Source: Nitrososphaeria archaeon (GTDB lineage: Archaea > Thermoproteota > Nitrososphaeria > Nitrososphaerales > JAAOZN01). Taken from it: 64,000 nt of DNA. The position numbers were made by a program, and so were the translations under genes. Location: positions 1-64,000 of the forward strand of contig JARVJZ010000004.1 in NCBI GenBank assembly GCA_029775855.1, written 5' to 3'. The notes under the pieces were generated by a model, which made no database searches, was not told the origin of the DNA, and was given only the letters and a program-made list of their open reading frames with translations. Position 1 is the first letter of the stretch. Each line of letters opens with the position of its first letter. Of this stretch, positions 21,056 through 38,160 are shown one piece after another.

Positions 21056-22186
21056 GTGGGTTTTGTACGTTCGCTTTTAGCTCTGTTTCTCGCTTTGCTT
21101 GTGAGTGGGGTCTCTACTTCAGCGGTTTTAATTCTTCCTCCTCCTACGCCTCAAGACCCTTTGGCGCCTAAGATTCTTTCTTCTAAGGGGCAGAGTTTAG
21201 ATCCTGTTTTCAGCCCAGACGGTAAGTTCATAGCCTACTCCTCAAATCTTTACGGAGACTTCGACATATGGCTTATGACTGTTGATGGTAGGAATCAAGT
21301 TAGGTTAACTTGCTTAGAAGGAGATGAGAAGAAACCCCAGTTCAGCCCAGATGGAATGAAAATTGCCTTTATACATTCATCTAACTTCGGTGAAGACATT
21401 TGGGTAGTGAATAGAGATGGCTCAAACCCCGTTAAGATAACAAACAATCATACACCAAAAAACAAGTTTGAATGGTCGCCCAATGGGTACCTTATAATCT
21501 ACGACACAATTGTAAACGATAAATGGCAGGTTTGGCTAACTTCTTTGAACAAAGGTATCAATATTTTTGTTGGGGATTCTGAAGAAAGATACGCGCCTTC
21601 TTGGAGCCGCAACGGTAAGTTTGCTATATGTGTAAATAAAGGCGTCAAAGGGTATAGTTTGGAGTTAATAGATGTTTCGACTAATTCGGTTGAAAAAATT
21701 TACACAACATCTGCAGTTATAAAGTATCCAAGTTTCTTTAGTGCTGATGAAAAGATTCTCTTTTTAAGAGGAAACGGTGATTGGAGCGTATATACTTTCA
21801 ACATAGGTAATTCACGCATCACAAATCTATTTGCAGACCCACTAAGGTATTATGCGGGCATACCTTGGACACCCATTTTAGAATCGGAAGTACCTTACGC
21901 TACGAGAACTAAGGCTTCAGAGCTTCTTTTCGTCGGCTACTCTAAACAAGGCGCTGAATTGTTCATATTGTATGATGATATAGAGATAGACTTTAAGGAA
22001 AGAGGTGTAGGTGTTATAAAAGGTTCAATAATTGAGAGATTATTTACAATAGGGCATACAAGAATAAATAGCCTAAGTTGGAGCCAAGATGGTCATAGCA
22101 TCTTACTGTCGTTTACCGAAGGAGGTTATAATATATTATCCTTACTAGTTCTAGAAAAAAAGAAAGTTTCACCTTATGAAAAATAA
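21056..22186 (+). CDS. exported TolB-like (PD40) beta-propeller protein
   Basis: Signal/anchor helix; repeated P.FSPDG.KIA, WSPNG and WSQDG units. Confidence 0.85.
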   Translation: MGFVRSLLALFLALLVSGVSTSAVLILPPPTPQDPLAPKILSSKGQSLDPVFSPDGKFIAYSSNLYGDFDIWLMTVDGRNQVRLTCLEGDEKKPQFSPDGMKIAFIHSSNFGEDIWVVNRDGSNPVKITNNHTPKNKFEWSPNGYLIIYDTIVNDKWQVWLTSLNKGINIFVGDSEERYAPSWSRNGKFAICVNKGVKGYSLELIDVSTNSVEKIYTTSAVIKYPSFFSADEKILFLRGNGDWSVYTFNIGNSRITNLFADPLRYYAGIPWTPILESEVPYATRTKASELLFVGYSKQGAELFILYDDIEIDFKERGVGVIKGSIIERLFTIGHTRINSLSWSQDGHSILLSFTEGGYNILSLLVLEKKKVSPYEK

Positions 22187-22205: not shown

Positions 22206-22964
22206 TTACCCATTGTCGTCTCTAGTTAATTCCATAAGTTCCTCTATATTCTTAGGCTTCAGAATCAGCTTATCCTTTAATCTAATTCCCATTGGTATTT
22301 CCTTTATATCATTTAGCGATTTGAAGATTGGTGGGAGAGGCTCTCTCGACCCTAAAAGTAGTAAGGCTTTATCCTCATCGTACGGGATTATCTTCTTCTT
22401 TTCACCCTTTGGTTTGAATACAACTGATGGGTTAGTTAAGCTTGGGTTTGGTAAGTCCTTTAGTTGTTTGACAGAACCATACTTTTTGACTAGATTCTCC
22501 ATTGTATCAAAGTCTAGAGCTCTCATCGGGCAAGCTAAGACGCATACAGGCTTAAGACCTTCTTCAAGTCTATCGATGCACATTGTACATTTATTAGCCT
22601 TAACGTCATTAGCTAACCTATCGCTCTCGTATGTTATGGCTCCATATGGGCAAGCTCGTTGGCAAAGTCTGTAACCTTTGCATTTTTCTTGATCTATCAG
22701 AACCGCGCCGTATTTCTCTTCTTTATATATTGCACCGTTAGGACACGCATCTATACAGACGGGATTACTACAATGGAAGCAGGTTACCCAGCGTATATGA
22801 GTTTTGATATTGGGATAATATCCCTCCTCATATTCGTAGATTCGAAGATATTTTATTGGCCCCGGTTTCAAGTCATACCAATCCTTACAAGCAACTACAC
22901 ACGCCTTGCAGTTAATGCATCTATCTTCGTTAAAGTAGAAGCCATATTGGACCATATCGCTCAC
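22206..22964 (-). CDS. DmsB-like 4Fe-4S dicluster subunit (15 Cys)
   Basis: Four Cys groups, with group III CKGYRLCQRACP missing its second Cys. 4-bp overlap with the upstream molybdoenzyme gene. Confidence 0.92.
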   Translation of the reverse strand: MSDMVQYGFYFNEDRCINCKACVVACKDWYDLKPGPIKYLRIYEYEEGYYPNIKTHIRWVTCFHCSNPVCIDACPNGAIYKEEKYGAVLIDQEKCKGYRLCQRACPYGAITYESDRLANDVKANKCTMCIDRLEEGLKPVCVLACPMRALDFDTMENLVKKYGSVKQLKDLPNPSLTNPSVVFKPKGEKKKIIPYDEDKALLLLGSREPLPPIFKSLNDIKEIPMGIRLKDKLILKPKNIEELMELTRDDNG

Positions 22965-25636
22965 CTCAACTTTTGTACCTCAACAACACTTGTTACTGGG
23001 AATGAACCAGATGGGCTCATCGAATCATATGTCAACACATTACAAGCACCTCTGCTATCCATGCCAGCTGGGTTTGGTGTAAACCAAGCACCGTGCCAAA
23101 CTGCTACGACGCCAGGCATAATCTTTGCAGTCACATAAGCCGGCAGTATTATTTCACCGCAATCGTTGAATACTCTAACCAAATCACCATCCTTGATACC
23201 TCTAGCTTTTGCGTCAGAGACACTTATCCATACTGAGTGTCGATACGCCTCCTCATCTAGCATAGGGTTGGTATCGTATGCTGTGTGAGATCTGTAGCGG
23301 CTATGCGGTGTTATCATTGTTAATGGATACTTATTTGCCAATGGGCTGAACATCATGTGCTCTGGTGGAATATATTTTGGAATAGGTGGTACATATCCAC
23401 CGTATTTTGTTTTAGTGAGATCAGTTTTAGCCAAATACTCTGAATATATCTCGATCTTTTTAGATGAGGTATTTGCGAAAGGTTTTCCTTCTTTGACTTC
23501 AACGCCATATGAATAAAGTGGTTCTGGAAAATCAAAGTGGTAAACCACTTGCTTCTTGAAGTCTTCCCAGCTAGGTAGGGTTCGCCCAATATTTGCTAGA
23601 CTTTTTGCTCTTGCTTCCCACGCTGCTTTAAGAAGCCTATCTTTAGTTTCTTCCCATTTGGAGTCATCTGTGTAATTGGGGTTGAATTCTTTGAGGAAGC
23701 CCATCTTCTCCGCTAGCTTTGTAAATATCCAATCTGGTTCTTTTGCCTCTCCTTGAGGTTCAACACATTTAGGAGAGTAGACCCACCAGCAACCCGATAT
23801 ATTCCCCCAAGGTGAATCTATAGTTGTAGTTTCAAATGGTGTTTCGACTACTGGTAATATAACATCAGAATACAGTGCAGTAGGTGTCATATGTATTGCG
23901 AAGTTAACGACATAATCAACCTTCTCAAGCGCCTTTACACCCTTTAGAATGTTCATGTTTCTGTTCAGATATTGACCGATTGCGTTAAAGATCATCTTGA
24001 TATTAGGTAAGGGGTTAGTTGCAGGATTACCTATTATGCTATTGTACTGCTCGGCAGTCAACGATTTACCAACCTCGTCTCTAAGAAGTATGGTATCAGC
24101 CCACTTAAACTGCTTAAAAGCTATAATTGTCTTTTGTTTTCCACTTCCACCCCAGCTAGCGCTTGGTGGACTTGGGGCTCTATCGCTCTCAATAGCCCAA
24201 TTAGTGGTGTTAATGTATCCACCCGGTACACCGATGTTTCCAGTTAAAGCTTGAAGCGCTATTGCAGCTCGAGCAACGTTTTCACCGTATTGATTTCTTG
24301 CTGGAGCCCAGCTTTTGAAGAGGCAGACAGGCTTGCTTCTCGCATATAAACGTGCAAAGCTTCGTATGGTTTCAGCTGGCACACCGCAAATCTTTTCAGC
24401 CCACTCTGGAGTTTTTGGTACACCATCCTCAACTCCTGTGACGTAGTCCTTCCACTTCTTAACCCCTTCTGGTTCAACAAACTTTTCGACATATTCTTTA
24501 TCATATAAGTCTTCAGTAAAGAGCACATATGCAACCGCTAAAGCAAAAGCAATATCTGTACCTGGTCGTATTGGGATCCATTGGTCTGCTAGTATGTCTA
24601 TAGTGTTAGTGTATTTGGGATCTATCGCTATTATTGGAGTGCCTTTCTTTTCTTTGATAAGTTTCATAAGATATAAAGTGTTTGTGCCAAATATTGTGTT
24701 TGCAGGGTCGTGCCCCCATAGAACTATTAGATTTGAATTAATCATGTCTGTTGTCTGATGACCTTTACCATAAGTTATACCCAACATATGGTTCTCGCTA
24801 AAGATCTCTGCCTCAAAAGAGCAAACACCCCAGCTATCGACTGTGTCAACAATGTGACTAAAGAATCTTGAGGCTCCTCTCTGCCATATAGAATATGGCC
24901 CATATTTCTCTTTGACTTCCTTAATCATCTTTGCGACTAAATCTAATGCTTCATCCCAGCTAATTCTTACAAATTTTCCCTCTCCTCTCTTTGTGCCCTC
25001 CACTCTTTTCATTGGGTACTTTATCCGATCTGGATTGTATATCCAATATTTCAGTGCACGCCCCCTTACACAAGGACGCTTTTGGACGATCGCGTTTATT
25101 AGCTTGTGATAATCAAGCAACTCATCTTCAATCGCTACGTTTGAATGGAGTAAGTCGTCTCCTTCGATAGCTGTAATAACACCGTTCTTAATTCTTGCTT
25201 TAAGTAGACAACCTCTGCCACCGCAGTTAATTGTGCAACTACCATAGCTTATGGTTTCTTGTTGGTGTTTTGCTGCTAGTTGCTGTTTTATGGCTTCGAC
25301 TCTTTGTTTGATTTCTGGTGATAGGGGTGGTTTTAGGCTTGGTGGTGGGGGTGGTGTTTGAGTTACGGTTGTGGTTGCTGTTTGAGTTACTGTTGCTGTT
25401 TGTGTTACTGGTGTTGTGACTGTCGTTGTCTGTGTTACTGGTGTTGTTACCGTCGCTGTTTGTGTTGTGGTTCTGGTCTGTGTTACTGTTGCTGTGACTG
25501 TCTTTTCAACCTCTCTGATAGGTGTGAGAAGCCTATCAGCACCAACACCAACCGCAACACCAGCTACAGCAGAAGCAGCTAAAGCGCCAGCCCACTTCAA
25601 CATAGAACGGCGAGAAACCTTAACCTCCTCACCCAA
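22961..25636 (-). CDS. Tat-exported DMSO-reductase-family (DmsA-like, Ser-ligand) molybdoenzyme with Thr-rich stalk, copy 1
   Basis: SRRSMLK Tat motif, CTINCGGRGC...PCVRG FS0 motif, WGVCSFE, IRPGTDIA and C-terminal molydopterin-dinucleotide domain (DAKARGIKDGDLVRVFN). Confidence 0.93.
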   Translation of the reverse strand: MGEEVKVSRRSMLKWAGALAASAVAGVAVGVGADRLLTPIREVEKTVTATVTQTRTTTQTATVTTPVTQTTTVTTPVTQTATVTQTATTTVTQTPPPPPSLKPPLSPEIKQRVEAIKQQLAAKHQQETISYGSCTINCGGRGCLLKARIKNGVITAIEGDDLLHSNVAIEDELLDYHKLINAIVQKRPCVRGRALKYWIYNPDRIKYPMKRVEGTKRGEGKFVRISWDEALDLVAKMIKEVKEKYGPYSIWQRGASRFFSHIVDTVDSWGVCSFEAEIFSENHMLGITYGKGHQTTDMINSNLIVLWGHDPANTIFGTNTLYLMKLIKEKKGTPIIAIDPKYTNTIDILADQWIPIRPGTDIAFALAVAYVLFTEDLYDKEYVEKFVEPEGVKKWKDYVTGVEDGVPKTPEWAEKICGVPAETIRSFARLYARSKPVCLFKSWAPARNQYGENVARAAIALQALTGNIGVPGGYINTTNWAIESDRAPSPPSASWGGSGKQKTIIAFKQFKWADTILLRDEVGKSLTAEQYNSIIGNPATNPLPNIKMIFNAIGQYLNRNMNILKGVKALEKVDYVVNFAIHMTPTALYSDVILPVVETPFETTTIDSPWGNISGCWWVYSPKCVEPQGEAKEPDWIFTKLAEKMGFLKEFNPNYTDDSKWEETKDRLLKAAWEARAKSLANIGRTLPSWEDFKKQVVYHFDFPEPLYSYGVEVKEGKPFANTSSKKIEIYSEYLAKTDLTKTKYGGYVPPIPKYIPPEHMMFSPLANKYPLTMITPHSRYRSHTAYDTNPMLDEEAYRHSVWISVSDAKARGIKDGDLVRVFNDCGEIILPAYVTAKIMPGVVAVWHGAWFTPNPAGMDSRGACNVLTYDSMSPSGSFPVTSVVEVQKLR

Positions 25637-25655
25637 ACAACATCAACTCTTGCTC
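25250..25655 (-). repeat. 406-bp inverted repeat, left copy
   Basis: Exact reverse complement of 32619-33024 when read base by base; identical shadow ORFs in the ORF track. Confidence 0.97.
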
Positions 25656-25671
25656 AGATACACACTATAAG

Positions 25672-25685
25672 TATTTAAATCTTTC
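25672..25685 (-). promoter_or_regulatory. BRE/TATA promoter of molybdoenzyme copy 1
   Basis: Minus-strand GAAAGATTTAAATA, with the TATA starting 24 bp outside the repeat edge. Confidence 0.6.
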
Positions 25686-25837
25686 AAATATATGTATAAA
25701 AATTTTAGATAATATTTTTGAACTTAATCTTAAGTAGAAAGGAATATCTAAGTGTATAACGTTCGCTGTAAACTTGCATTACGCGCAATAGCCAAAACAA
25801 TTATCTAAAAGTGTGAGTAAAATATGGTGTATAAAGA

Positions 25838-27247
25838 TTGATAATAGTGTTGGTTAACCCACCTTTTACACTTAGTGAATGTTTCCGAGGTTTTGCAAGA
25901 GTTGGCAGTATACAGCAGCCGCTTGGTCTTGCTTATGTGGCGGCTGTATTGGAGGAGGCTGGGTATAATGTTAAGATTATCGATTCGCCGGTGTTAGGAC
26001 TGAGTTTACAAGAGACTGTCGAGACTGTCATTAGAATGAGACCAGATGTCGTCGGAATTACTGCCACCACTCCAACTTTCAATAGGGCTATTAGCTTAGC
26101 AGAAAGTCTAAAGAAGGTAGCTGATATACCACTAGTTATCGGTGGGCCGCATTCTACTACACTCCCTGATGAAACCCTAGCCCTTTCCTGCTTTGATATA
26201 GCGATCATAGGCGAAGGTGAATACACAATGCTTGAATTACTTAAATGCTTGCAAAAAGGTACATCTTTATACGAAGTTAAAGGGATAGCGTTTAAAGAAA
26301 GGGGACAGATAGTAAAGACTCCTCCTAGAGCATATATAGACGACCTAGATGCGCTTCCTTTTCCAGCGCGCCACCTCCTTCCACCTTTAAAGTATTATCA
26401 CCCTACTCCTTCTGCTTATCGCTCATTACCACAGGCTACAATGATTACAAGTAGAGGTTGCCCCTACCAATGCACCTTCTGCGACCGTTCAGTATTTGGA
26501 AACAAGTATAGAGCAAGAAGTCCCAAGAATGTAGTTGAAGAAGTTGAAGAACTCGTCTACGAATATAGGGCAAAAGAAGTGAGGTTTTGGGACGACACAT
26601 TTAACATCAACAGAAAAAGAGTTCTAGAGATTTGTAGAGAAATGCGGATGCGAAGACTAGACATAAGCTGGACATGCCTATGTAGGGCAAACTTAGTAGA
26701 TGAAGAAATGTTACGTGAAATGGCCAAGGCTGGGTGTTGGCAAGTAGAATATGGCATAGAATCCGGTAACGAGGAACTTCTTAAAAAGATCGGTAAGGGA
26801 ATTACTCTCCAACAAATTAAGGGCGCAGTAGAAAAAACTAAAGCCGCGGGTATGAAGGCCCGAGGTTTCTTTATGCTGGGCTTACCTGGTGAAACTGAGC
26901 AGACTCTCAGACAGACTATAATCTTCGCAAGGTCCTTAAAGCTGGATGCTGCTGTCTTCCACATTACGATCCCCTTTCCAGGAACAGACCTATATCTAAG
27001 CGCTGTCTCCAGTGGCGAACTACGCACTGACTTAAACTACCAATATTATTTGATGTTTGGCTCAGATGAAGTCCCATATATACCAAAAGGGTTAACTAAA
27101 GAAGTACTCTTGAAGTATCGGTCAATAGCATATAAGTCATTTTATCTAAGGCTAAGTTATATGCTAGAACAGTTAGCTTCTGCAAGATCTCTTAAAGATT
27201 TATTTCGATACCTACTTGGTTTTATAACCCTAGCGCGCATCGAGTGA
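25838..27247 (+). CDS. cobalamin-binding (class B) radical SAM protein
   Basis: NPP...PLGLAYVAA B12-binding domain, GGPH, GEGE, TSRGCPYQCTFC, DDTF, GIESG and PFPGT. Confidence 0.93.
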   Translation: MIIVLVNPPFTLSECFRGFARVGSIQQPLGLAYVAAVLEEAGYNVKIIDSPVLGLSLQETVETVIRMRPDVVGITATTPTFNRAISLAESLKKVADIPLVIGGPHSTTLPDETLALSCFDIAIIGEGEYTMLELLKCLQKGTSLYEVKGIAFKERGQIVKTPPRAYIDDLDALPFPARHLLPPLKYYHPTPSAYRSLPQATMITSRGCPYQCTFCDRSVFGNKYRARSPKNVVEEVEELVYEYRAKEVRFWDDTFNINRKRVLEICREMRMRRLDISWTCLCRANLVDEEMLREMAKAGCWQVEYGIESGNEELLKKIGKGITLQQIKGAVEKTKAAGMKARGFFMLGLPGETEQTLRQTIIFARSLKLDAAVFHITIPFPGTDLYLSAVSSGELRTDLNYQYYLMFGSDEVPYIPKGLTKEVLLKYRSIAYKSFYLRLSYMLEQLASARSLKDLFRYLLGFITLARIE

Positions 27248-27254
27248 GCCTAGT

Positions 27255-27944
27255 TTATTTGCTCAACTCATCTATTACAAAAGGTATAAATTCTTGTTCT
27301 ATTTTAATAAATCCATTTAACATTTTTGCAATACCTATGTAAAATTTGTTCGAAGACGCCTCTACAATCTTTCGACAAAGCTCTGGCACCCATTTACTTA
27401 GATGATCGCTTAAGAACTCCATTTGTAGTTTCAAGTATCCCTTTGAGTACTCAACGTTATTTGCGTCAAGGCTTCGCTTCGTCAAGTCTACCAGCTTTGC
27501 CATAAACTCTAGTTCCACAGCTAAATGGTCTTCAGGTTCTTTAAAATCAGGGGTTTTCTCAAAGCCTAATATTCTATATGCATCCAAGACCTCAAAATAT
27601 GGTTCTTCATATAACGTATGGTGCTTTCCAAGGTACACCGATTCAACTAAATAGACTGGTTTAGGGCCGACATTCAAGAAAAGTGATGCGTATTCTGAAG
27701 CAAGATCCGTAAGTAAGTTATTCCTTTCTGGAGTTTCTTTAAAGTTTTTAAAGAAATCGGATATGATTATGCAACCTTTCTTTAGTTCCTCATTATCTGC
27801 TGATTCAGACAATTGGATAAAAAGTTCTTCTAGTTCTTCTATAAGTTTGAGAAATGCTTCATCGACTTCCTTTGCAAAACTTCTTGATAAGAAGCTATAG
27901 AGAACGTACCTTGTCTGCATAACATCTTTATAATTATTTAACAA
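27255..27944 (-). CDS. dmsD: TorD/DmsD family molybdoenzyme maturation chaperone
   Basis: YASLF...ESVYL and EPEDHLAVELEFM motifs; last gene of the A-B-C-D operon. Confidence 0.88.
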   Translation of the reverse strand: MLNNYKDVMQTRYVLYSFLSRSFAKEVDEAFLKLIEELEELFIQLSESADNEELKKGCIIISDFFKNFKETPERNNLLTDLASEYASLFLNVGPKPVYLVESVYLGKHHTLYEEPYFEVLDAYRILGFEKTPDFKEPEDHLAVELEFMAKLVDLTKRSLDANNVEYSKGYLKLQMEFLSDHLSKWVPELCRKIVEASSNKFYIGIAKMLNGFIKIEQEFIPFVIDELSK

Positions 27945-27962
27945 CCTGATCTAACTTCCTTC

Positions 27963-29204
27963 TTATTGGTTAATATTCTTTTCCGTCCTCCATATAGGAA
28001 ATATCCAATATGCTATAGTAGTTATAAGAGCAATTATACCAAATAAAGCAGCGCCTATCGTTAATTCTATCCACGTAGGAAAGTACACACCATACACACC
28101 AAATGAAGATAAGCCGACACTGTATTCTCCTTTTGCTATGCCAGGTGGTAATAATATAGGCGGATATATATAGCCTGGGACTACAAGTTCAACTCTGTAG
28201 GATAATACGCCGGTAAGCACAAGTAAGGCTGCCAATCCAAGTATCTTCGGGTTCATTCTAAGTCTTGGATGTAATAGTAAGATGAATGGTAATATGGCCC
28301 CCGGGATCCACTCGTATACGAAGAATGGTAAGAAGGGGCCGGTAAATATTAGCGTTAGAGGTAGTGTCTCTGATGGTGCGGCAGACCATAACCTTATGAC
28401 GAATTCATTTCCTATAAGGAATAGATCTATTGGGATGATGACTGCAAGCAACTTACCGAGTGTATTAATTGTTTTAACCTCTACTCTTATTCGGCTGCGC
28501 CACTGCATGATTAGAACTGTCAATATGACTAATGAGAGCCCTGAGATCATAGCTGAGGCTAAGAAGATAGGGGCAATCAAAGCGCTGTACCACCAGCTTC
28601 TACTTATTTGTGTTCCGAATATCCACGCTGTTACTGTGTGTAGCATTACTGCTGTGGGCAGAGCTATAAACGAGATCACTTTGACTATTCTCTCGTCTTT
28701 AGCAACCGCTTTTGGCGAAACATCATTAAATCCGAAGGTGAGACGGCTGCCTTTCCTAGCTAACTCCGCACGCATCATAAACCAAAGATCAACTATACAC
28801 AAGACCAAATAGACAACTATTACAGTAAAGTCCCATATCAGCGGCGAAAGTGGATTGCCATATAATATAAGGTAGGCTATACGCTCAGGTCTACCCAAAT
28901 CTGGGATAATAGATAGAGCTGCAACAGCAACACAAGCAGCTGCCAGCGTGGTAGCCACTTTAGCTATCGGTTTAAACTCTTCTACTCCAAACACATGTGC
29001 AGAAGATGAGACGATAAGACCACCTGCGCTTATGCCTACGAAGAAGGCAAATAATGTGATGTAGATTCCCCAGCTTACAACATTTCTCATTCCAGTTACT
29101 ATCAACCCGTTTTGTAGCTGGATAATCCACGCACCCAAGCCTCCGCCGATGAGCAGAAGTAAAAATATTAACCAGCCGTAGAATAATGGCGAATGTTTAG
29201 CCAC
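27963..29204 (-). CDS. dmsC: NrfD/PsrC-family membrane anchor subunit
   Basis: VSWGIYI..F.FFVGISAG, DLGRPER, SPLIWD and LHTVTAWIF; ~10 TM. Confidence 0.88.
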   Translation of the reverse strand: MAKHSPLFYGWLIFLLLLIGGGLGAWIIQLQNGLIVTGMRNVVSWGIYITLFAFFVGISAGGLIVSSSAHVFGVEEFKPIAKVATTLAAACVAVAALSIIPDLGRPERIAYLILYGNPLSPLIWDFTVIVVYLVLCIVDLWFMMRAELARKGSRLTFGFNDVSPKAVAKDERIVKVISFIALPTAVMLHTVTAWIFGTQISRSWWYSALIAPIFLASAMISGLSLVILTVLIMQWRSRIRVEVKTINTLGKLLAVIIPIDLFLIGNEFVIRLWSAAPSETLPLTLIFTGPFLPFFVYEWIPGAILPFILLLHPRLRMNPKILGLAALLVLTGVLSYRVELVVPGYIYPPILLPPGIAKGEYSVGLSSFGVYGVYFPTWIELTIGAALFGIIALITTIAYWIFPIWRTEKNINQ

Positions 29205-30006
29205 GCTGCAACACCCTCTTCAAAGTGGCTGAAGCGATAGCCTTTAGAGAAATATCACTTGATGTTGATATGATGGATGTTAATGTAGATTCGACATGCT
29301 TGACAAAAGCTTCATATAAGTTAGTAAACGACTGTTTACCACGTTTAGGTGGAAGATAGTAGGTCTTCGGTTGTGTCCCTAATTCTTCAAGCAATCTTAC
29401 ACCACTCCGCTCTTTAACCAGTTTTGACACTTTGCTATTGGGATCATCCAGATCTCCGAAGAATCTTGCTCTCGCGGGGCACATAGCTACGCAGAAGGGC
29501 TCTTGCCCATCTGTGATACGATGTATACATAGTGTGCATTTTTCTACGACACCCTTAGGTCTCTCCGGAGAATATATTATCCAACCCTCATCCTTTACTA
29601 CACCTTGATAACCTGTTCCATGCTCAGGCAAATGCTTTGGTTCTGCCCAGTTGAAGACGCGAACGCCATAAGGACAAGCGGCCATACAATATCTGCATCC
29701 TACACACCTCTCAATTCTTAGCTGTACAGTTCCATCTTCTTCACGCCTATAGGTGCCTGAAACAGGGCAAGCTTTTACACACGGTGCGTTATCACAATGT
29801 TGACATGTAATTGGAAGATAGAATATAGATGTATTTGGGTAGCTTCCTGAGCTTGTGTCAATCATAGACCCGCCGACGGTAAGCACTCGATTCCACCAAT
29901 TTCCTAAGCTCACATTATTCTCAAGTTTGCAAGCGATTGCGCAGGTTTGGCAGCCAATGCATCGATCCAAATCTATAACAAGCCCATATCTTACCAACCT
30001 AATCAC
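29197..30006 (-). CDS. dmsB: 4Fe-4S dicluster electron-transfer subunit (16 Cys)
   Basis: Complete four Cys groups: CIGCQTCAIAC, CQHCDNAPCVKACP, CVGCRYCMAACP and CTLC...CVAMCP. Confidence 0.92.
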   Translation of the reverse strand: MIRLVRYGLVIDLDRCIGCQTCAIACKLENNVSLGNWWNRVLTVGGSMIDTSSGSYPNTSIFYLPITCQHCDNAPCVKACPVSGTYRREEDGTVQLRIERCVGCRYCMAACPYGVRVFNWAEPKHLPEHGTGYQGVVKDEGWIIYSPERPKGVVEKCTLCIHRITDGQEPFCVAMCPARARFFGDLDDPNSKVSKLVKERSGVRLLEELGTQPKTYYLPPKRGKQSFTNLYEAFVKHVESTLTSIISTSSDISLKAIASATLKRVLQRG

Positions 30007-30009
30007 ATC

Positions 30010-32526
30010 CTATGCTTTTTGAACCTCAACTAATGTGTCAAAGAAGGAGCAGTTTAGAGTTATTGGATTCTTGTGTGCTGGTGTCAACTCATTATAGCTA
30101 CCTGCTGCGAACTGCCTTTTTTGCCATCCTTTATCCATGTTAATCAAGCCCGGTCTTAAACTTGGATTTAATTTGGCTCTCGCTCTTACCCAGCCTCTAT
30201 CGTTAAACACGTTAACGACATCGCCATTCTTAATTCCTCTGGCTTCAGCGTCCCTCGGGTTCATTTCGACAAATGGTTCTGGATCTAGTTCCCTTAACCA
30301 AGGAACTTCATACCACTGGGAGTGAACACGCCACTTCGAATGCTGCTGTATAAGCGTCAATGGATACTTCTTAGTTAAAGGGTTTTCGACCCAAGCTTCT
30401 TTAGGTGATTCAAAGTATGGAAGCGGATTAACACCCATAGTTACAGATATACCAAGAGCTGGATATGCCCAAGGATAGTTTAAAATCACCCTCTCAGAAT
30501 AAAACTCAAGACGCCCAGTTTGAGTAGGGTATTTACCGTCTTCATAGCCTATATAAGGCTCTTTAGAAAGTCTTACTACTCCCTCTTCTTTGAATCTTTT
30601 GATCTTTTCTTCACCGTATACTTCCTTTAACGCAGCAAGTATTCTTTCCCGATGGTCAGCTTCTGAACCTTGAAAGTATTGACCGAATCCCATCTTTTCA
30701 GCTAACATCTTAAAGATGTCCCAATCACTTTTGCATTCATACAACGGTTTGATCGCTCTTTCTTGGATCATTAGGTATGGGTGTAAACCACCCATTAAAT
30801 CGTCGTTCTCAAACCACGTTGTAGCTGGGAGAACAATATCAGCAAACATAGCTGTATCATTCATCTTCTGCTCTATCACTACGATAAATTCTAAGTTTTC
30901 TTCGGAAAACAGCTTTTCAATCCACTTTTGATTAGGGTAGCTGTTAACAAAGTTAGTACAAGATATTACTGCAGCTTTGATGGTGTATGGTGTTGGGATG
31001 GGGTCTTTGCTTATAGTTCCTTTTAAGGGGTCAGCCGGATCGCTAGGCACATACCTTTCAACATAACCATAAGCTATTGCGTCGTAAGCTAGGAGCGGAT
31101 TCAGGGTGTGAGCTTCTGTCCCAGATGGGGTAACCCACCTCCAAGACTCACTTAAAGCTGCTATTAGAGCTGAACCACCGTATGGTCCTCCAACCATCGC
31201 GCCAGGCCTACCTATGTTTCCAGTTAGTGCTGCTAGTGTAGCTAACGCTCTACCAGTAAGATAGCCATTATCCCATCTATCTACACCGAACCCTGCGAGA
31301 ATGCAGGCTGGTTTTCTTGTTGCATAGAGCCTTGCTACTTCTTGAACTTCGTTTGCAGGAACTTCGGTTAGCGCTTCAGCGTTTTCGGGTTTATATTTTG
31401 AGGCTTCTTCCCAAAGTAGCTGTAGAGCTGTTTTACAAAGTATACCATTAATTACGTATTTTCCAAAAAGAGCTGGAGGCATAGCTTTCTCGAAAACCGT
31501 TGGAGCGTCGGTGGCTTCATCATAGACTACATAATTGTTACTACCGTTTTCTTTGATGTCTTTTTCTCTTAAAAATAGACCATTATCTAATCTAACCAGA
31601 AATGGTGCGACTGTGCGCTCTAGAACAAACTTTCTATCATATAGCTCTTCATTCAATATGGTGTAGATCATTGAGAGGGCTAGCGCCGGATCTGAGCCTG
31701 GTCTTGGTTTTAGCCATATATCTGATTTGGCGGCTACAACACTCATTCTAGGATCGATGGAAACCATTTTTGCCCCGTTTTCCAGAGCATCTGCTACGAA
31801 ATGCCAGTTTTGAATCTGGCTTTCAGTGAAGTTAGACCCCCACATTATGATAAGCCTAGTATTATCTGCTATATCCACTGCTTCGTTAGCGCCAAAGAAA
31901 GCTGAGCTACCTCCTGGGATGTTTGCAATAACTTGGCTAAGTCCAAGTGGGAGGGCTGAGTCGACTCCTCCTTCTACTACCGTACCTTGAAATATATTGG
32001 CAAATAGCTTCATGGCGCCACAGAAGCTACCATTCACTAAACCATAATTCCCAGAGAGTGTAGCGAACATTACAGCACTTGAGCCATACTTCTCTTTGAC
32101 TTTTAAGAGTTTTTGTGCAATAGTGTTAATGGCTTCATCCCAGCTTATCCTTACCCACTTACCCTCACCCCTCTTCCCCACTCTTTTCAAAGGATACTTT
32201 AGTCTATTTGGATCATAAACACGTTGAACATGAGATAAACCTCTAAGGCATATCCGATCATACCTTCTATTGGGCATAGGTGCCATCTCAGTTTTAACAA
32301 GCTTATCCTCAAATACGTGGACATAAAGCCTGCAGCTCTGCCAGCAGTTAGGAGCGCAAGCGCTACGAAATACTTTAGTTGTCTTCTCCATCTTTTCGAT
32401 TGAAGCAGAAGCGCGAGATGGTATAAGCAAATTGCAACCAAGTGAGGATAAAGCTGCAATAGAAGTTGTTAAGGCAAGGCCTTTCAGGAAGGAACGACGC
32501 GATAGAACCATTGTAGGCTTATCCAC
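30010..32526 (-). CDS. dmsA: Tat-exported DMSO-reductase-family catalytic subunit, haloarchaeal DmsA-like (likely Asp ligand)
   Basis: SRRSFLK Tat motif plus ASA cleavage site, CAPNCWQSC...ICLRGLSHVQRVYDP and GGVDSA; dmsABCD-type gene order. Substrate uncertain. Confidence 0.8.
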   Translation of the reverse strand: MDKPTMVLSRRSFLKGLALTTSIAALSSLGCNLLIPSRASASIEKMEKTTKVFRSACAPNCWQSCRLYVHVFEDKLVKTEMAPMPNRRYDRICLRGLSHVQRVYDPNRLKYPLKRVGKRGEGKWVRISWDEAINTIAQKLLKVKEKYGSSAVMFATLSGNYGLVNGSFCGAMKLFANIFQGTVVEGGVDSALPLGLSQVIANIPGGSSAFFGANEAVDIADNTRLIIMWGSNFTESQIQNWHFVADALENGAKMVSIDPRMSVVAAKSDIWLKPRPGSDPALALSMIYTILNEELYDRKFVLERTVAPFLVRLDNGLFLREKDIKENGSNNYVVYDEATDAPTVFEKAMPPALFGKYVINGILCKTALQLLWEEASKYKPENAEALTEVPANEVQEVARLYATRKPACILAGFGVDRWDNGYLTGRALATLAALTGNIGRPGAMVGGPYGGSALIAALSESWRWVTPSGTEAHTLNPLLAYDAIAYGYVERYVPSDPADPLKGTISKDPIPTPYTIKAAVISCTNFVNSYPNQKWIEKLFSEENLEFIVVIEQKMNDTAMFADIVLPATTWFENDDLMGGLHPYLMIQERAIKPLYECKSDWDIFKMLAEKMGFGQYFQGSEADHRERILAALKEVYGEEKIKRFKEEGVVRLSKEPYIGYEDGKYPTQTGRLEFYSERVILNYPWAYPALGISVTMGVNPLPYFESPKEAWVENPLTKKYPLTLIQQHSKWRVHSQWYEVPWLRELDPEPFVEMNPRDAEARGIKNGDVVNVFNDRGWVRARAKLNPSLRPGLINMDKGWQKRQFAAGSYNELTPAHKNPITLNCSFFDTLVEVQKA

Positions 32527-32585
32527 TACAAGCCTATCTTTTATATTTTTCCTTGGTTGTCGCTAAATTTTTTGTTTATTTTGTT

Positions 32586-32600
32586 TAAATATTTATATAT
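32586..32600 (+). promoter_or_regulatory. TATA promoter of molybdoenzyme copy 2
   Basis: TAAATATTTATATAT, with TTTATATA starting 27 bp outside the repeat edge. Confidence 0.55.
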
Positions 32601-32618
32601 TAGCTCTACTTTGATTTA

Positions 32619-33024
32619 GAGCAAGAGTTGATGTTGTTTGGGTGAGGAGGTTAAGGTTTCTCGCCGTTCTATGTTGAAGTGGGCTGGCGCTTTAGCTGCT
32701 TCTGCTGTAGCTGGTGTTGCGGTTGGTGTTGGTGCTGATAGGCTTCTCACACCTATCAGAGAGGTTGAAAAGACAGTCACAGCAACAGTAACACAGACCA
32801 GAACCACAACACAAACAGCGACGGTAACAACACCAGTAACACAGACAACGACAGTCACAACACCAGTAACACAAACAGCAACAGTAACTCAAACAGCAAC
32901 CACAACCGTAACTCAAACACCACCCCCACCACCAAGCCTAAAACCACCCCTATCACCAGAAATCAAACAAAGAGTCGAAGCCATAAAACAGCAACTAGCA
33001 GCAAAACACCAACAAGAAACCATA
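32619..33024 (+). repeat. 406-bp inverted repeat, right copy
   Basis: Identical to the reverse complement of 25250-25655; covers 19 nt upstream plus codons 1-129. Confidence 0.97.
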
Positions 33025-35328
33025 GTGTACAGTGGGGGGTGTGGAATAAATTGTGGTGGTGGCGGAGGTTGGGATAGTGGGTGCTTCTTTAAAATAAGAC
33101 TTAGGGATGGTGTGATAACAGCTATAGAATCTGATGATACTATTAACACCAATCTGCCTAGGGAAGACGAAGTAAAAGATAACATTGATAAAGTGAGACT
33201 TCAACGCCGACCGTGTGTCCGTGGTAGAGCTTGGCGCAAATATATCTACGGACCAGACCGTATTCTATATCCATTGAAGAGAGTAGGTCAAAGAGGTGAG
33301 GGAAAGTTTGTTCGAATTAGTTGGAATGAGGCTCTAGATACTATTGCAGCTAAAATGAAAGAAATGAAAGAGAAATACGGTCCATACTCAATAGGCACTA
33401 TGTATGAGTACCAAGAGTTTCCTAACATTCTTGCATACTTTGGTTGCGGCGCTACAGGTTGGAGCACAGCGTCTTTTGAAGCTACTAACTTTGCTGGGCT
33501 ACAGATGATGGGTGCTTGGGCTTGGATACCTTACGTTGATCACGAAGCACCAGACATTTTTAACACTAAACTCATAATCATGTGGGGGTGGGACCCAACT
33601 ACATCAGAATGGATGATCTTCACAAAATACTATCTTCTACTAGCAAAAGAAAAGGGTATACCAATTATCGTAATCGAACCTAGATATACGTCATCGGCAG
33701 AAGTTTATGCAGACCAGTGGATACCAATTAGACCCGGCACTGATGTAGCAATGATGTTAGCGATGGCAAACGTTATATTCAAGGAAAAGCTTTACGATCA
33801 AGATTATATCTCGAAATATGTGGATACGAATGGTCTTCAAAAATGGATGGACTATGTCTTAGGTAAGTCTGATGGAGTCGATAAGACGCCTGAGTGGGCA
33901 GAGAAGATATGCGGTGTTCCTGCTGAAACTATACGCGACTTAGCTCGACTATACGCTAAGAGCAAACCTTGCCATCTTAATGTAAGCTGGGCGCAAGCCA
34001 GACAGCCTTGGGGTGAGAATGTCGCTAGAGCAGCAATAGCTTTACACGCCATAACGGGAAACATAGGTGTGCCAGGTGGTGCTTCTTGCTTAGGTGGTGG
34101 ATTTGTGGCAAGAGGTGTTTATGATAGCCCAGTTGTCGATTATAGGCAAAAACCTGTTCCCGTAACAGAAATGTGGGGTGGGACATTACCAGTGCTATAT
34201 TGCAACTGGAAGTGGGCTGATGTAGTTCTGCTAAAAGAGAAGGTTGATAAGGGTGAGATGACTAAAGAAGATTACTACAGCATCATCGGTAACGATGCAA
34301 ATAACCCTATGCCCAATCTACATATGTTATGGATAAATAAGAACATATTTAATCAGACAGTTGATCTTAACAAACAAATCAAGGCTATTATGAAGATGGA
34401 CTTTGTAGTTGCTTGCGGGAGGCATATGACGCCATCAAACAAATATGCTGATATAATATTGCCCCTAACAGATGTCATGTTTGAAGAAAGACACTTTTTC
34501 GGCAACATGTATGCACCAAAGATCATTAACCCCCCAGGAGAAGCAAAAGATTTGTTGTGGATTCAAACTCAACTCGCCAAAAGACTGGGTCTTCTCGACT
34601 TGTATATGCCACTCTACACTACAGATGCTGAATGGGATAACTTGCTGGAAAGGCTCCATAAAGAAGCCTATGAAAAATGGGCGGCTCAACGAGGAATAAA
34701 TGTTTCTTGGGAGGAGTTTAAGAAGAAGCCAATAATACGCAGAGATGTCGTAGGAGAATTGAATTATCCCTTTAAAGCGCAGATTCAGAAAGGTGAGAAA
34801 TTTAACACAAGTACTGGCAAGATCGAAATATATTCTGAATATTTGGCTAAGACTGATCTAAAGAAGACAAGATACGGAGGATATATAGATCCTATGCCAG
34901 TCTACAGACCGCTTTGGGAAGGCTTTTACGATCCAAAAGCAAAAAAGTATCCACTTATGGTTATCACACCCCACGGAAGGTACAGAATCCACTCTGTTCA
35001 AGACTCTAATCCTTGGTTATCTGAAGATGCATATAGGAACTCAGTTTGGATAAGTGTGGTCGACGCTAAAGCAAGAGGCATTAAAGACGGTGACTTAGTC
35101 AGAGTTTACAACGACGTGGGAGAAATGGTGATTCCAGCTTATGTGACTTCGAGGATAGTACCTGGTGTAGTCTGTGTGTATGAGGGTAGATGGTATAGTC
35201 CAAACCCCAAAGGAGTCGATCGTAGAGGATGCAGTGATATAATATGTTATAATGAGAGTGCTGTACAACGATATCCCGGCGCTGGAGCTTGGCCGTTTAC
35301 AGCGCTTGTGGAGGTTGAAAAGTTCTAA
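32638..35328 (+). CDS. Tat-exported DMSO-reductase-family (DmsA-like, Ser-ligand) molybdoenzyme with Thr-rich stalk, copy 2
   Basis: Same N-terminal 129 aa as copy 1; CGINCGGGGGWDSGC...PCVRG, WSTASFE, IRPGTDVA and C-terminal MGD domain. Confidence 0.93.
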   Translation: MGEEVKVSRRSMLKWAGALAASAVAGVAVGVGADRLLTPIREVEKTVTATVTQTRTTTQTATVTTPVTQTTTVTTPVTQTATVTQTATTTVTQTPPPPPSLKPPLSPEIKQRVEAIKQQLAAKHQQETIVYSGGCGINCGGGGGWDSGCFFKIRLRDGVITAIESDDTINTNLPREDEVKDNIDKVRLQRRPCVRGRAWRKYIYGPDRILYPLKRVGQRGEGKFVRISWNEALDTIAAKMKEMKEKYGPYSIGTMYEYQEFPNILAYFGCGATGWSTASFEATNFAGLQMMGAWAWIPYVDHEAPDIFNTKLIIMWGWDPTTSEWMIFTKYYLLLAKEKGIPIIVIEPRYTSSAEVYADQWIPIRPGTDVAMMLAMANVIFKEKLYDQDYISKYVDTNGLQKWMDYVLGKSDGVDKTPEWAEKICGVPAETIRDLARLYAKSKPCHLNVSWAQARQPWGENVARAAIALHAITGNIGVPGGASCLGGGFVARGVYDSPVVDYRQKPVPVTEMWGGTLPVLYCNWKWADVVLLKEKVDKGEMTKEDYYSIIGNDANNPMPNLHMLWINKNIFNQTVDLNKQIKAIMKMDFVVACGRHMTPSNKYADIILPLTDVMFEERHFFGNMYAPKIINPPGEAKDLLWIQTQLAKRLGLLDLYMPLYTTDAEWDNLLERLHKEAYEKWAAQRGINVSWEEFKKKPIIRRDVVGELNYPFKAQIQKGEKFNTSTGKIEIYSEYLAKTDLKKTRYGGYIDPMPVYRPLWEGFYDPKAKKYPLMVITPHGRYRIHSVQDSNPWLSEDAYRNSVWISVVDAKARGIKDGDLVRVYNDVGEMVIPAYVTSRIVPGVVCVYEGRWYSPNPKGVDRRGCSDIICYNESAVQRYPGAGAWPFTALVEVEKF

Positions 35329-35336: not shown

Positions 35337-36083
35337 ATGATGGTTCAATATGGATTTTTCTTTGACCAAAGCAGATGCATAGGTTGCAGAGCTTGCGCTG
35401 TAGCTTGCAAGGACTGGAACGATCTGCCTGAAGGACCGGTTAAGTGGCTTCGGATATATGAATATGAAAAGGGTGCTTTCCCAAATGTGAGGGTTCACTA
35501 CCACTTCATTCCTTGTTTCCATTGCGAAAACCCCATATGTATAGACGCATCTAGTGCTCGCGGTATTTATAAGGAAGAAAAGTATGGTGCTGTGTTAATA
35601 GACCCTGATAAGGCTACTAAACTGAGGGATGCAGCCGCTGCTTGCCTATACGGTTCGATAGTCTTTGAAAGTGATGCCTCTGATGCAAAAGCCTCAAAAT
35701 GCACAATGTGCATAGATCGATTAGAAGAGGGGCTACTACCAGTTTGCGTAGCAGCGTGCCCAACTAGAGCTTTGGATTTTGGACCTCTTGAAACATTGCA
35801 AAGAAAGTATGGTACAAACAGGGATCTAGAGGATCTACCACCGTCTACTCTAACAAAGCCTTCCGCAATCTTTAAGCCACACTCTCCGAAGAAGCAGCTA
35901 GTCAGCTACGATGTAAATAAGGCCCTAAAGCTGCTTGCTGAAAGAGGCGATCTACCAAGTATATATAGTACAGCTGAGGATGTATTAAATATACCAGAAG
36001 GGCTGTTAAAGCGCAATAAGTTAGTTCTTAAGCCAAATAGCGTAAAGGACCTTCAAGAACTAACAAGGGACGATAACGCCTAA
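35337..36083 (+). CDS. DmsB-like Fe-S subunit with only 12 cluster Cys
   Basis: Groups I and IV intact; group II ends CIDAS and group III reads ATKLRDAAAACLY. Confidence 0.9.
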   Translation: MMVQYGFFFDQSRCIGCRACAVACKDWNDLPEGPVKWLRIYEYEKGAFPNVRVHYHFIPCFHCENPICIDASSARGIYKEEKYGAVLIDPDKATKLRDAAAACLYGSIVFESDASDAKASKCTMCIDRLEEGLLPVCVAACPTRALDFGPLETLQRKYGTNRDLEDLPPSTLTKPSAIFKPHSPKKQLVSYDVNKALKLLAERGDLPSIYSTAEDVLNIPEGLLKRNKLVLKPNSVKDLQELTRDDNA

Positions 36084-38156: not shown

Positions 38157-38160
38157 ACGA

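What the first reader, a model, noticed from the sequence alone, without database searches (positions are those of the whole stretch)
25250..33024. Perfect 406-bp inverted repeat could flip a 7-kb segment and swap promoters between two molybdoenzymes
Seen: 25250-25655 and 32619-33024 are identical inverted copies, including synonymous sites, while the rest of the two genes is strongly diverged. Identity begins 24-27 bp downstream of each gene's distinct TATA box, near the expected TSS. It ends just before the first FS0 cysteine motif. The enclosed 25656-32618 segment carries both promoters, dmsABCD and a B12 radical SAM. Inference: crossover within the repeats inverts the segment, leaves both ORFs intact and exchanges their promoters, so a different catalytic head becomes divergently paired with dmsABCD. 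This would be a phase-variable respiratory switch. No site-specific recombinase is in the window, so it would rely on homologous recombination or a trans-acting enzyme. Recent gene conversion or assembler collapse of near-identical copies are alternatives.
Basis: partly seen in the sequence, partly recalled or inferred. Interest (0 to 1): 0.88.

Follow-up and report, generated by a model that had tools for sequence, protein, structure and literature searches.

The report
Shared leader module on archaeal molybdoenzymes
Two diverged respiratory molybdenum-enzyme genes of a hot-spring archaeon carry a letter-perfect shared front end that recombination keeps identical, which makes flipping of the 7-kb stretch between them possible but not shown.

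Summary
Bases 25250-25655 and 32619-33024 are a 406-nt, 100% inverted repeat. It is the longest repeat in the 1.5-Mb genome. It is present at twice the flanking depth in the probable source run, so it is not an assembly artefact.

Each arm holds 19 nt of leader plus codons 1-129 of a DmsA-like gene. These codons encode a Tat signal, a hydrophobic stretch, a Thr-rich linker and a helix. The rest of the two genes is about 60% identical in DNA.

The best reading is concerted evolution by gene conversion:
- A sister lineage has its own version of the module, again identical on the A-, B- and a third C-type enzyme. Modules are 100% alike within a lineage and 83-88% between lineages. Bodies group by type.
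- Another strain carries a 30-nt deletion at double depth, so in both arms.

Inversion by homologous recombination is mechanically plausible but was not observed. No tyrosine or serine recombinase was found in the genome. In the sister lineage the repeat includes the TATA box, so core promoters would not be swapped there. One metagenome contig (L019) shows the flipped topology, but its join runs through the repeat.

A programmed phase switch is unlikely, at about 0.1. Interest is moderate.

The parts
25250..25655 (-). Left arm of the repeat: 19-nt leader plus codons 1-129 of gene A (Tat signal SRRSMLK, hydrophobic stretch, Thr/Gln/Val-rich linker with 30-nt periodicity, PPPPP, helix SPEIKQRVEAIKQQLAAKHQQET)
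32619..33024 (+). Right arm of the repeat: the same 19-nt leader plus codons 1-129, on gene B
   Evidence: Unitig depth is 76.2 against about 40 in the flanks
22961..25249 (-). Body of gene A: DMSO-reductase-family Mo-bisPGD catalytic subunit (PF00384 + PF01568), best NCBIfam match dmsA_ynfE but below its cut-off
   Evidence: It is 87-88% identical to A' of the sister lineage
33025..35328 (+). Body of gene B: paralogous Mo-bisPGD catalytic subunit, 53% identical to the body of A
22206..22964 (-). DmsB-like 4Fe-4S subunit of the A cassette
35337..36083 (+). DmsB-like 4Fe-4S subunit of the B cassette
25656..25837 (.). Intergenic region with the promoter of gene A (TATA-like box 25672-25679, minus strand), divergent from the radical SAM gene
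   Evidence: The promoter is read from the sequence, not mapped
25838..27247 (+). B12-binding radical SAM gene
27255..27944 (-). NarJ/DmsD-family chaperone. It is the only member of PF02613 over the cut-off in the genome, and a model places it on the shared Tat leader
27963..29204 (-). NrfD/PsrC-type membrane subunit
29197..30006 (-). 4Fe-4S subunit of the enclosed operon
30010..32526 (-). Third Mo-oxidoreductase (PF04879 + PF00384 + PF01568) with its own, different Tat signal
32527..32618 (.). 92-nt intergenic region with the promoter of gene B (TATA-like boxes 32584-32599), back to back with the enclosed operon
   Evidence: The promoter is read from the sequence, not mapped

Best explanation
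The repeat is a shared 5' module: a short leader, a Tat signal, a hydrophobic stretch, a Thr-rich stalk and a helix. It sits on two, and in the wider population three, otherwise diverged DmsA-like catalytic genes. Repeated gene conversion between the copies keeps it letter-identical within a genome. This is concerted evolution driven by RadA-dependent homologous recombination. The converted tract stops on the outer side where the catalytic domain begins, because the bodies are only about 60% alike. On the inner side it stops near the promoter, at a point that differs between lineages. The module is probably kept common because all the heads use the same export, anchoring and maturation route, including the single NarJ/DmsD-type chaperone encoded between them. 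This last step is inferred. Because the two copies are inverted, the same recombination must now and then resolve as a crossover. That would flip the 7-kb segment and exchange what lies upstream of the repeat. I regard this as an occasional by-product on evolutionary time scales, as in the yeast flip/flop region or Salmonella tufA/tufB, and not as a programmed switch. The module also appears to serve as one homology anchor for replacing whole catalytic cassettes between strains.
For: Shown:
(1) 406/406 nt are identical, synonymous sites included, inside genes that are 41-78% identical per 60-column bin elsewhere.
(2) There are two real copies. Unitig depth is 76.2 against 40.1, 39.4 and 30.1.
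(3) Run X2 holds a strain whose enclosed segment differs at 55 of 7015 places. Its repeat has no substitution but a 30-nt deletion, at depth 44.4 of 51.2, against 21 for the enclosed contig. So both arms carry the same deletion.
(4) In the sister lineage, P0001 (B type), P0005 (A type) and the C-type gene of L019 have modules 100% identical to each other (103/103 aa) but only 83-85% identical to the window's. P0004 (C type) carries the window's version (46/46). Bodies group by type: A-A' 87-88%, B-B' 90%, C-C' 70%, and 48-59% between types.
(5) In L020 both arms are seen as DNA: 1-99 against 8041-8139, 100%.
(6) RadA is present at 304 bits. No PF00589 or PF00239 recombinase was found.
(7) Cassette exchange: L019 and L020 are 99.77% identical over 7286 nt up to the last codons of the module, and then carry different bodies, C' and B'. 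In X1 a contig leaves the repeat at 33007 into the C-type sequence of P0004, and the B body has depth 30.1 against 40.1 for A.

Inferred:
(8) There is one NarJ/DmsD gene over the cut-off in the genome, and it lies inside the segment. The complex model of this chaperone with leader residues 1-49 scores 0.77, with the best of 3 controls at 0.05. That mark was reached by 58 of 80 solved complexes and 2 of 110 mismatched pairs. The runs agree in at least 55% of their contacts, and the partner's pLDDT is at least 63. Chaperones binding Tat leaders is a textbook pairing, so this pass may reflect family likeness.
Against: No read or contig that spans a whole arm was available, so neither conversion tracts nor crossovers were seen directly. 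That P0001, P0005 and L019 belong to one lineage or genome is inferred from sequence identity, not from a closed genome. Parallel replication slippage in the 30-nt-periodic linker could in principle make the same deletion twice. Strong purifying selection alone could explain identical protein, though not identical synonymous sites. The chaperone most naturally serves the catalytic subunit of its own operon, whose leader was not modelled. A close cousin of a true partner can also pass the complex test.
Confidence: 0.75

Rival explanations
1. This is a programmed, reversible phase-variation switch. The 7-kb segment flips frequently within a clonal population to exchange the promoters of genes A and B and so change which catalytic head is expressed.
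For: The geometry allows it. In the window the repeat starts within a few nt of the predicted TSS, so the core promoters would be exchanged. Contig L019 joins the PsrA-like end of the segment, through the module, to a cassette followed by homologues of window genes 21101-22183 and 19623-20885. Those are the left flank, so this is the flipped topology. Both alleles of a SNP at 25629/32645 appear next to both promoters in X1. This is my reading of the unitig ends.
Against: No tyrosine or serine recombinase was found in the genome (0 hits for each of 2 families). The same searches ring in 14 of 14 and 12 of 14 control genomes. A 406-nt arm is not what is typical of invertase sites, which I recall as short. 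In the sister lineage the repeat includes the TATA box and about 7 nt upstream of it, so the core promoter is common to both genes. L020 has the window's orientation. The L019 join runs through the repeat and may be an arbitrary choice by the assembler, and L019 also has odd 750-nt inverted ends. No joints were reported in 4 of 4 runs, but k=31 contigs cannot show them. The SNP pattern is explained equally well by two co-existing strains, each homogenised.
Confidence: 0.1
2. A single, very recent gene conversion or illegitimate recombination copied the 5' end of one gene onto the other, with no long-term maintenance.
For: Perfect identity with sharp edges is what one recent event would give.
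Against: The same tract, with the same outer edge, is identical among paralogues in a second lineage that has its own diverged version. A third gene type carries it too. A strain-specific 30-nt deletion is present in both arms. A more distant set of proteins shows modules 88-94% alike on bodies 45-62% alike.
Confidence: 0.06
3. This is an assembly artefact: two similar but different 5' ends were collapsed to one consensus, or one copy was duplicated by the assembler.
For: The window comes from a metagenome-derived genome in 6 contigs.
Against: The repeat unitig is at twice the depth of the flanks in X1 and X2. Only one polymorphic site was noted in it in X1. Independent assemblies and gene calls from other samples show the same pattern.
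Confidence: 0.02

Closest known systems
Yeast chromosome XIV 'flip/flop' region (Salzberg et al. 2022, PMC9731477; abstract and outline read)
   Same: A gene-bearing segment lies between inverted paralogous genes. The repeat is continually homogenised within each strain or species, and this homogenisation causes recurrent re-inversion. According to a section heading in the paper's outline, orientation is stable on laboratory time scales.
   Different: It is eukaryotic. The arms are 4 kb holding whole genes, and the segment is 24 kb. Both orientations are documented there. Here only a 406-nt 5' module is homogenised, the bodies have diverged into different enzymes, and the two orientations are not demonstrated.
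Salmonella tufA/tufB (Paulsson et al. 2017, PMC5485169; abstract and outline read). That the two genes are inverted and that recombination between them gives inversions is recalled, and was seen only as search terms in the listing
   Same: Duplicate genes co-evolve by RecA-type gene conversion whose tracts are limited by the bounds of homology.
   Different: There the whole gene is homogenised and both copies encode the same protein. Here the tract is one module of two functionally diverged enzymes, in an archaeon.
Invertase-driven invertons and invertible promoters (for example PMC5903667 and bioRxiv 10.1101/2023.03.11.532203; search listing only)
   Same: An inverted repeat flanks a promoter-bearing segment. 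In principle an inversion re-wires expression without breaking ORFs.
   Different: As I recall, those use short repeats and a dedicated tyrosine or serine recombinase. Here the arms are 406 nt and no such recombinase was found in the genome.
Helicobacter pylori babA/babB-type paralogue families, with shared 5' regions and locus-specific promoters (recalled; no paper opened)
   Same: Paralogues share near-identical 5' segments. Recombination moves variable bodies behind different promoters.
   Different: Those are bacterial adhesins involved in host interaction. I made no check of this comparison.
Redox-enzyme maturation proteins that bind Tat leaders (PMC3316669 and PMC4464133; starts of abstracts in the search listing)
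   Same: A NarJ/DmsD-family chaperone recognises the N-terminal Tat signal of its molybdoenzyme. This gives a reason to keep one leader on several heads.
   Different: The listing says that most such chaperones recognise one specific pre-protein. Here one chaperone would serve two or three heads through an identical leader. This is predicted only.

Membership tests
Concerted evolution of paralogues by gene conversion | The tract is identical within a genome, synonymous sites included, while the rest of the genes is diverged | tested here: met
   406/406 nt identical against 41-78% per bin outside the tract
Concerted evolution of paralogues by gene conversion | The tract groups by genome or lineage, while the flanking gene bodies group by gene type | tested here: met
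   Modules are 100% alike within a lineage and 83-88% between lineages. Bodies are 87-90% (A, B) and 70% (C) within a type, and 48-59% between types. Assignment of the metagenome proteins to a lineage is inferred
Concerted evolution of paralogues by gene conversion | A new variant appears in both copies of another strain | tested here: met
   A 30-nt deletion at depth 44.4 of 51.2, where single-copy depth is 21 (X2)
Concerted evolution of paralogues by gene conversion | Homologous recombination machinery is present | tested here: met
   PF08423 RadA at 304 bits at C2:91966-92682
Recombinase-driven inverton (phase variation) | A cognate tyrosine or serine site-specific recombinase | tested here: not met
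   PF00589 gave 0 hits and PF00239 gave 0 hits in 1.507 Mb at 98.4% completeness. Controls ring in 14/14 and 12/14 genomes
Recombinase-driven inverton (phase variation) | Short inverted repeats as recombinase sites (typical length recalled, not from a call) | tested here: not met
   The arms are 406 nt of coding sequence
Recombinase-driven inverton (phase variation) | Both orientations present in one population | not testable with these tools
   Only k=31 contigs were on hand. None spans an arm, and no joints were listed in 4 of 4 runs
Flip-flop inversion by homologous recombination between inverted paralogues | Both orientation isomers are found among strains or species | tested here: inconclusive
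   L020 has the window's orientation. L019 has the flipped topology, but its join runs through the repeat
DMSO reductase (Mo-bisPGD) family, DmsA/YnfE subfamily | Molybdopterin oxidoreductase domain plus dinucleotide-binding domain | tested here: met
   PF00384 at 140 and 143.5 bits, PF01568 at 88.7 and 74 bits
DMSO reductase (Mo-bisPGD) family, DmsA/YnfE subfamily | Score over the TIGR02166 cut-off (777.7 bits) | tested here: not met
   507.3 and 481.2 bits. These are family members, but the subfamily and the substrate are not assigned
Tat-exported protein | Twin-arginine motif followed by a hydrophobic stretch | tested here: inconclusive
   The motif SRRSMLK followed by WAGALAASAVAGVAVGVGA can be read in the sequence. 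PF10518 scores 20.8 and 20.9 bits, below the 22.7 cut-off
NarJ/DmsD redox-enzyme maturation chaperone | PF02613 domain, and binding to the leader of its client | tested here: met
   PF02613 at 108 bits against a cut-off of 22.2. Binding is only modelled: 0.77 against 0.05 for the best control

The most novel reading that the evidence does not exclude
The module is the constant 'handle' of a cassette system run by homologous recombination. Hot-spring archaeal populations keep one leader, Tat signal, stalk and chaperone interface. Behind it they exchange whole catalytic heads (A, B, C and further types) between loci and strains, and they flip the central operon. The respiratory repertoire and its wiring to promoters are thus shuffled without any dedicated recombinase. 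This would be a respiratory counterpart of antigen-type cassette systems.
Probability: 0.25. Interest if true: 0.75.

Novelty: new member of a known kind. Interest (0 to 1): 0.45.

Why it matters
The locus is a clean archaeal example of module-limited concerted evolution. An export, anchor and maturation module stays letter-identical on enzymes whose catalytic parts have diverged to about 50% identity, and this is seen in at least two lineages and on three head types. It suggests how small-genome thermophiles may diversify respiratory enzymes while re-using a single chaperone and a single export and anchoring route. It also marks a natural recombination hot spot, because strain contigs differ exactly at the edge of the module. 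There is a warning for metagenome users too. The orientation of the 7-kb segment, and which head follows which promoter, cannot be trusted in short-read assemblies. If the flip or the cassette exchange proves frequent, it would be a form of respiratory heterogeneity in Archaea that needs no dedicated recombinase. My four literature searches found no description of this. The library holds open-access papers only.

Tried and rejected
Close relatives among GTDB species genomes. 30 relatives were searched with protein B, and 3 of them had a match at E <= 1e-50. The best was 48% identical and lacks the Tat signal and linker. The repeat DNA found only weak Thr-linker matches in 2 of 3 genomes of the same genus. 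These genomes therefore gave no information on orientation.

Reads. All 4 runs laid are Logan contigs, so no joint, start or strand information was available. X3 and X4 are thin (depth 2-10) and gave only fragments. The stretches without cover in X4 (32775-33125) say nothing. The cap on read laying prevented a second look at the C-type junction.

Loose ends of X1 contigs at 25809, 32565 and 32575. I searched each of the three 30-mers in G000 with up to 3 mismatches, and 0 of 3 were found. They are not junctions with G000's own sequence, so they give no evidence for an alternative inversion. They are probably neighbouring sequence from other strains.

The transposase-like ORFs beside the arm in sister-lineage contigs were considered as drivers of rearrangement. 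G000 has no counterpart: they gave no tblastn hit at 1e-20, and the genome has almost no repeats. So they do not explain the window.

Supplementary files of papers were not consulted.
Full report
OBSERVATION

The repeat is real and is exactly as described. The arms are 25250-25655 and 32619-33024, 406 nt, 100% complementary, with 6963 nt between them. The arms are the 5' ends of two genes that point outward. Gene A is 22961-25636 on the minus strand (891 aa). Gene B is 32638-35328 on the plus strand (896 aa). Each arm holds 19 nt upstream of a TTG start codon plus codons 1-129.

In an alignment of the two loci, every full 60-column bin inside the repeat is 60/60. Outside it, identity drops at once to 0.41-0.78. 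The proteins are 129/129 identical in the module and 53% identical in the bodies. Identity stops at ...QQETI, just before the first cysteine motif. On the promoter side it starts 24-27 nt from the 5' end of a TATA-like box in each gene. It therefore starts within a few nucleotides of where an archaeal TSS is expected. This is an inference from the usual TATA-to-TSS spacing, not a mapped TSS.

The window is contig C4:1-64000 of a 1,507,471-base genome in 6 contigs, 98.4% complete. A self-BLAST of the whole genome finds only three repeats of 150 nt or more at 90% identity or more, and this one is the longest. It has exactly two full copies.

WHAT THE GENES ARE

A and B are catalytic subunits of the DMSO reductase (Mo-bisPGD) family, with PF00384 and PF01568. 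Their best NCBIfam match is dmsA_ynfE, at 507 and 481 bits against a cut-off of 777.7. They are therefore family members without a subfamily or substrate assignment. Each is followed by a DmsB-like 4Fe-4S subunit (22206-22964 on the minus strand, 35337-36083 on the plus strand) and flanked by a TolB-like beta-propeller gene.

The shared module reads MGEEVKVSRRSMLKWAGALAASAVAGVAVGVGADRLL..., that is, a twin-arginine signal and a hydrophobic stretch. A Thr/Gln/Val-rich linker follows, whose DNA has a 30-nt period. Then come PPPPP and the helix SPEIKQRVEAIKQQLAAKHQQET.

The enclosed segment carries five genes:
- a B12-radical SAM gene (25838-27247, plus strand);
- a NarJ/DmsD-family chaperone (27255-27944, minus strand);
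- an NrfD membrane subunit (27963-29204, minus strand);
- a 4Fe-4S subunit (29197-30006, minus strand);
- a third Mo-oxidoreductase with a different Tat signal (30010-32526, minus strand).

IS IT AN ARTEFACT?

No. Four runs labelled hot springs metagenome hold the stretch, and I laid all four on 24000-34500. All four are k=31 contigs.

In X1, which may be the source sample, the contigs break at the edges of the repeat. The repeat unitig (32646-33007) has depth 76.2. The A body has 40.1, the enclosed 6979-nt contig has 39.4 and the B body has 30.1. So there are two copies per genome, indistinguishable at k=31.

One polymorphic site lies inside the repeat, at 25629, which corresponds to 32645 in the other arm. 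From where the unitigs end, I infer that both alleles lie next to both promoters. That fits two co-existing strains, each with homogenised arms.

CONCERTED EVOLUTION

Three independent lines of evidence support it.

(i) Run X2 holds a strain whose enclosed segment differs from the window at 55 of 7015 places. Its repeat has no substitution, but it lacks 30 nt (one 10-residue linker unit) at depth 44.4 of 51.2. The single-copy depth there is 21. So both arms carry the same deletion.

(ii) The protein search found P0001 (B type, 88% identical) and P0005 (A type). Their N-terminal modules are identical to each other up to ...HQGET but differ from the window's module. The metagenome contig L019 adds a C-type gene with that same module. 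In turn P0004, a partial C-type protein labelled by its source as from a 'Nitrososphaerales archaeon' MAG, carries the window's version of the module and leaves it at ...QQLAAK|REGESVVYTS. This is exactly the loose end that an X1 contig shows at 33007.

The identity matrix is clear-cut:

| Comparison | Identity |
|---|---|
| Modules, within a lineage, across A, B and C | 100% (123/123, 46/46, 103/103) |
| Modules, between lineages | 83-88% |
| Bodies, A-A' | 87-88% |
| Bodies, B-B' | 90% |
| Bodies, C-C' | 70% |
| Bodies, between types | 48-59% |

(iii) In L020 both arms are visible as DNA: 1-99 against 8041-8139, 100% identical.

A more distant set of metagenome proteins (P0014, P0019, P0020, P0082) shows the same architecture. 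Their modules are 88-94% alike on bodies that are 45-62% alike. I could not see their genomic context.

One caveat applies to this section. That the metagenome proteins and contigs of the sister lineage belong to one genome type is inferred from their mutual identity.

EDGES OF THE TRACT

The outer edge is the same in both lineages: the last codons before the catalytic domain.

The inner edge is not. In the window it lies downstream of two different TATA boxes. In L020 the identity runs upstream through a common TATA-like box (TTTATTTA) and about 7 nt beyond it. There, a flip would not exchange core promoters.

This is what wandering conversion end-points would give. It argues against the promoter boundary being a designed feature.

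INVERSION

A crossover between the arms would invert 25656-32618 and exchange the upstream regions. RadA is present. No tyrosine recombinase (PF00589) and no serine recombinase (PF00239) was found anywhere in the genome, although the same searches ring in 14 of 14 and 12 of 14 control genomes. Any flip must therefore be by homologous recombination.

I could not obtain direct evidence. k=31 contigs cannot link the two sides of a 406-nt repeat, and the junction words are the same in both orientations. No joints were listed in 4 of 4 runs.

Comparative evidence is mixed:
- L020 reads rSAM ... PsrA-like gene - module - B' - FeS - TolB2' - homologues of window 37359-39492. That is the window's orientation.
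- L018 reads module - A' - FeS - TolB1', followed by homologues of window genes lying between 20885 and 15244. That is the left flank.
- L019 is 99.77% identical to L020 over 7286 nt up to the end of the module. It then continues into C' - FeS - TolB1' - the homologue of 19623-20885, which is the left flank. Taken at face value, this is the flipped topology with a C cassette at the A position.

The L019 join runs through the repeat, so the assembler may have chosen the exit arbitrarily. L019 also has 750-nt perfect inverted ends that contain a weak transposase-like ORF. I treat it as a lead, not as proof.

The three other loose ends in X1 (25809, 32565, 32575) lead into sequence that is absent from G000. 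They are not inversion junctions.

CASSETTE EXCHANGE

Several observations suggest that the module is also a breakpoint for swapping heads:
- L019 and L020 diverge exactly at its outer edge.
- L018 and L019 become alike again (94.7%) inside the TolB-like gene beyond the cassette.
- In X1 the B body has depth 30.1 against 40.1 for A, while a contig branches from the repeat into the C-type sequence.
- In X2 the first 586 nt of the B body differ at 29 places. The A body differs at 1 of 1280 places, and the repeat at none.
- L021 lacks the whole B' cassette.

All of this comes from contigs of mixed populations and is suggestive only.

WHY KEEP ONE MODULE?

G000 has a single NarJ/DmsD-family gene over the Pfam cut-off, and it lies inside the segment. 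A second hit scores 19.8 bits, below the cut-off. The genome holds at least six Mo-oxidoreductase loci. Neither the A operon nor the B operon has a chaperone or a membrane subunit of its own.

A complex model of this chaperone with leader residues 1-49 supports binding. The score is 0.77, and the best of 3 controls is 0.05. That mark was reached by 58 of 80 solved complexes and 2 of 110 mismatched pairs. The runs agree in at least 55% of their contacts, and the partner's pLDDT is at least 63. The contacts cover leader residues 8-40.

Chaperone-leader pairs of this family are well known, so the pass may reflect family likeness. I did not model the leader of the enclosed enzyme. Selection for a common chaperone, export and anchoring interface would explain why conversion of this part is tolerated or favoured. 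That is an inference.

COMPARISON WITH KNOWN SYSTEMS

The closest analogue is the yeast flip/flop region. There, inverted paralogues are continually homogenised, and this causes recurrent re-inversion of the segment between them (PMC9731477; abstract and outline read).

The Salmonella tuf genes are the bacterial model for conversion tracts bounded by the limits of homology (PMC5485169; abstract read).

Classical invertons differ in that they need a dedicated recombinase and, as I recall, use short repeats.

Four searches of the paper library turned up no description of a homogenised Tat-leader module on archaeal molybdoenzymes. The library holds open-access papers only.

VERDICT

The thing is a gene-conversion-maintained 5' module shared by paralogous respiratory molybdoenzyme cassettes (confidence 0.75). 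Inversion by homologous recombination is a plausible consequence, but I could not show it. A programmed phase switch is unlikely (about 0.1).

It is a new member of a known kind, namely concerted evolution between inverted paralogues, with an interesting modular and population-level twist. Interest: 0.45.

Noticed in passing
L020:117-1171 and L019:1-750 / 13669-14418: In sister-lineage contigs, a DDE_Tnp_IS240 transposase ORF sits between the left arm and the radical SAM gene (L020). L019 ends in 750-nt perfect inverted copies that hold a weak DUF772-like ORF. Both elements abut the same site 60 nt upstream of the radical SAM start. G000 has no counterpart.
   Followed up: partly
L021:7936-8050 against L020:8519-12688: L021 equals L020 except that the B' body, its FeS gene and the TolB-like gene (4.2 kb) are missing. 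The junction has the 3-nt microhomology TTT. This is either a deletion variant or a chimeric contig.
   Followed up: partly
L020:8911-8913: The B' reading frame changes here in this contig, although the clustered protein P0001 is continuous. This is either a sequencing error or a frameshifted allele.
   Followed up: no
L007:1291-3786 (G003:C81): A homologue in a genome of the same genus (48% identical) starts directly at the helix (MDTELPQEEKIKRIEQIK...). It has no Tat signal and no linker, so it appears to be a cytoplasmic version of the enzyme.
   Followed up: no
whole genome G000: No Phage_integrase-family (PF00589) hit was found at all, although all 14 control genomes, 4 archaea among them, ring. 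This would mean there is no XerA-type recombinase, unless it lies in the unassembled 1.6% of the genome.
   Followed up: no
P0004, P0006, L019:7671-10346: The C-type bodies lack the cysteine motif that follows the module in A and B (for example YTSCYPFWGG, YTGRTPFWSM). They probably lack the FS0 cluster.
   Followed up: no
P0014, P0019, P0020, P0082 (metagenome proteins): This is a more distant set of DmsA-like proteins with N-terminal modules 88-94% alike on bodies 45-62% alike. The search lists the same longest-contig length, 14,034 nt, for both P0019 and P0020.
   Followed up: partly
window 2727-2883; C5:135613-135769; C2:174982-175140: These are the only other repeats of 150 nt or more in the genome (157-159 nt, 95-97% identical). 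No tRNA was found in the window.
   Followed up: no
window 25809, 32565, 32575 (run X1): Contigs of the probable source run leave the window sequence at these three points, close to the two promoters, into sequence that is not in G000. Other strains or loci therefore share the promoter-proximal part with different neighbours.
   Followed up: partly
window 32509-32526: The ORF of the enclosed Mo-enzyme starts at GTG 32526, but an ATG five codons downstream (MVLSRRSFLK) lies about 25 nt from a TATA-like box at 32532-32539. That would fit a leaderless transcript. This is read from the sequence only.
   Followed up: no
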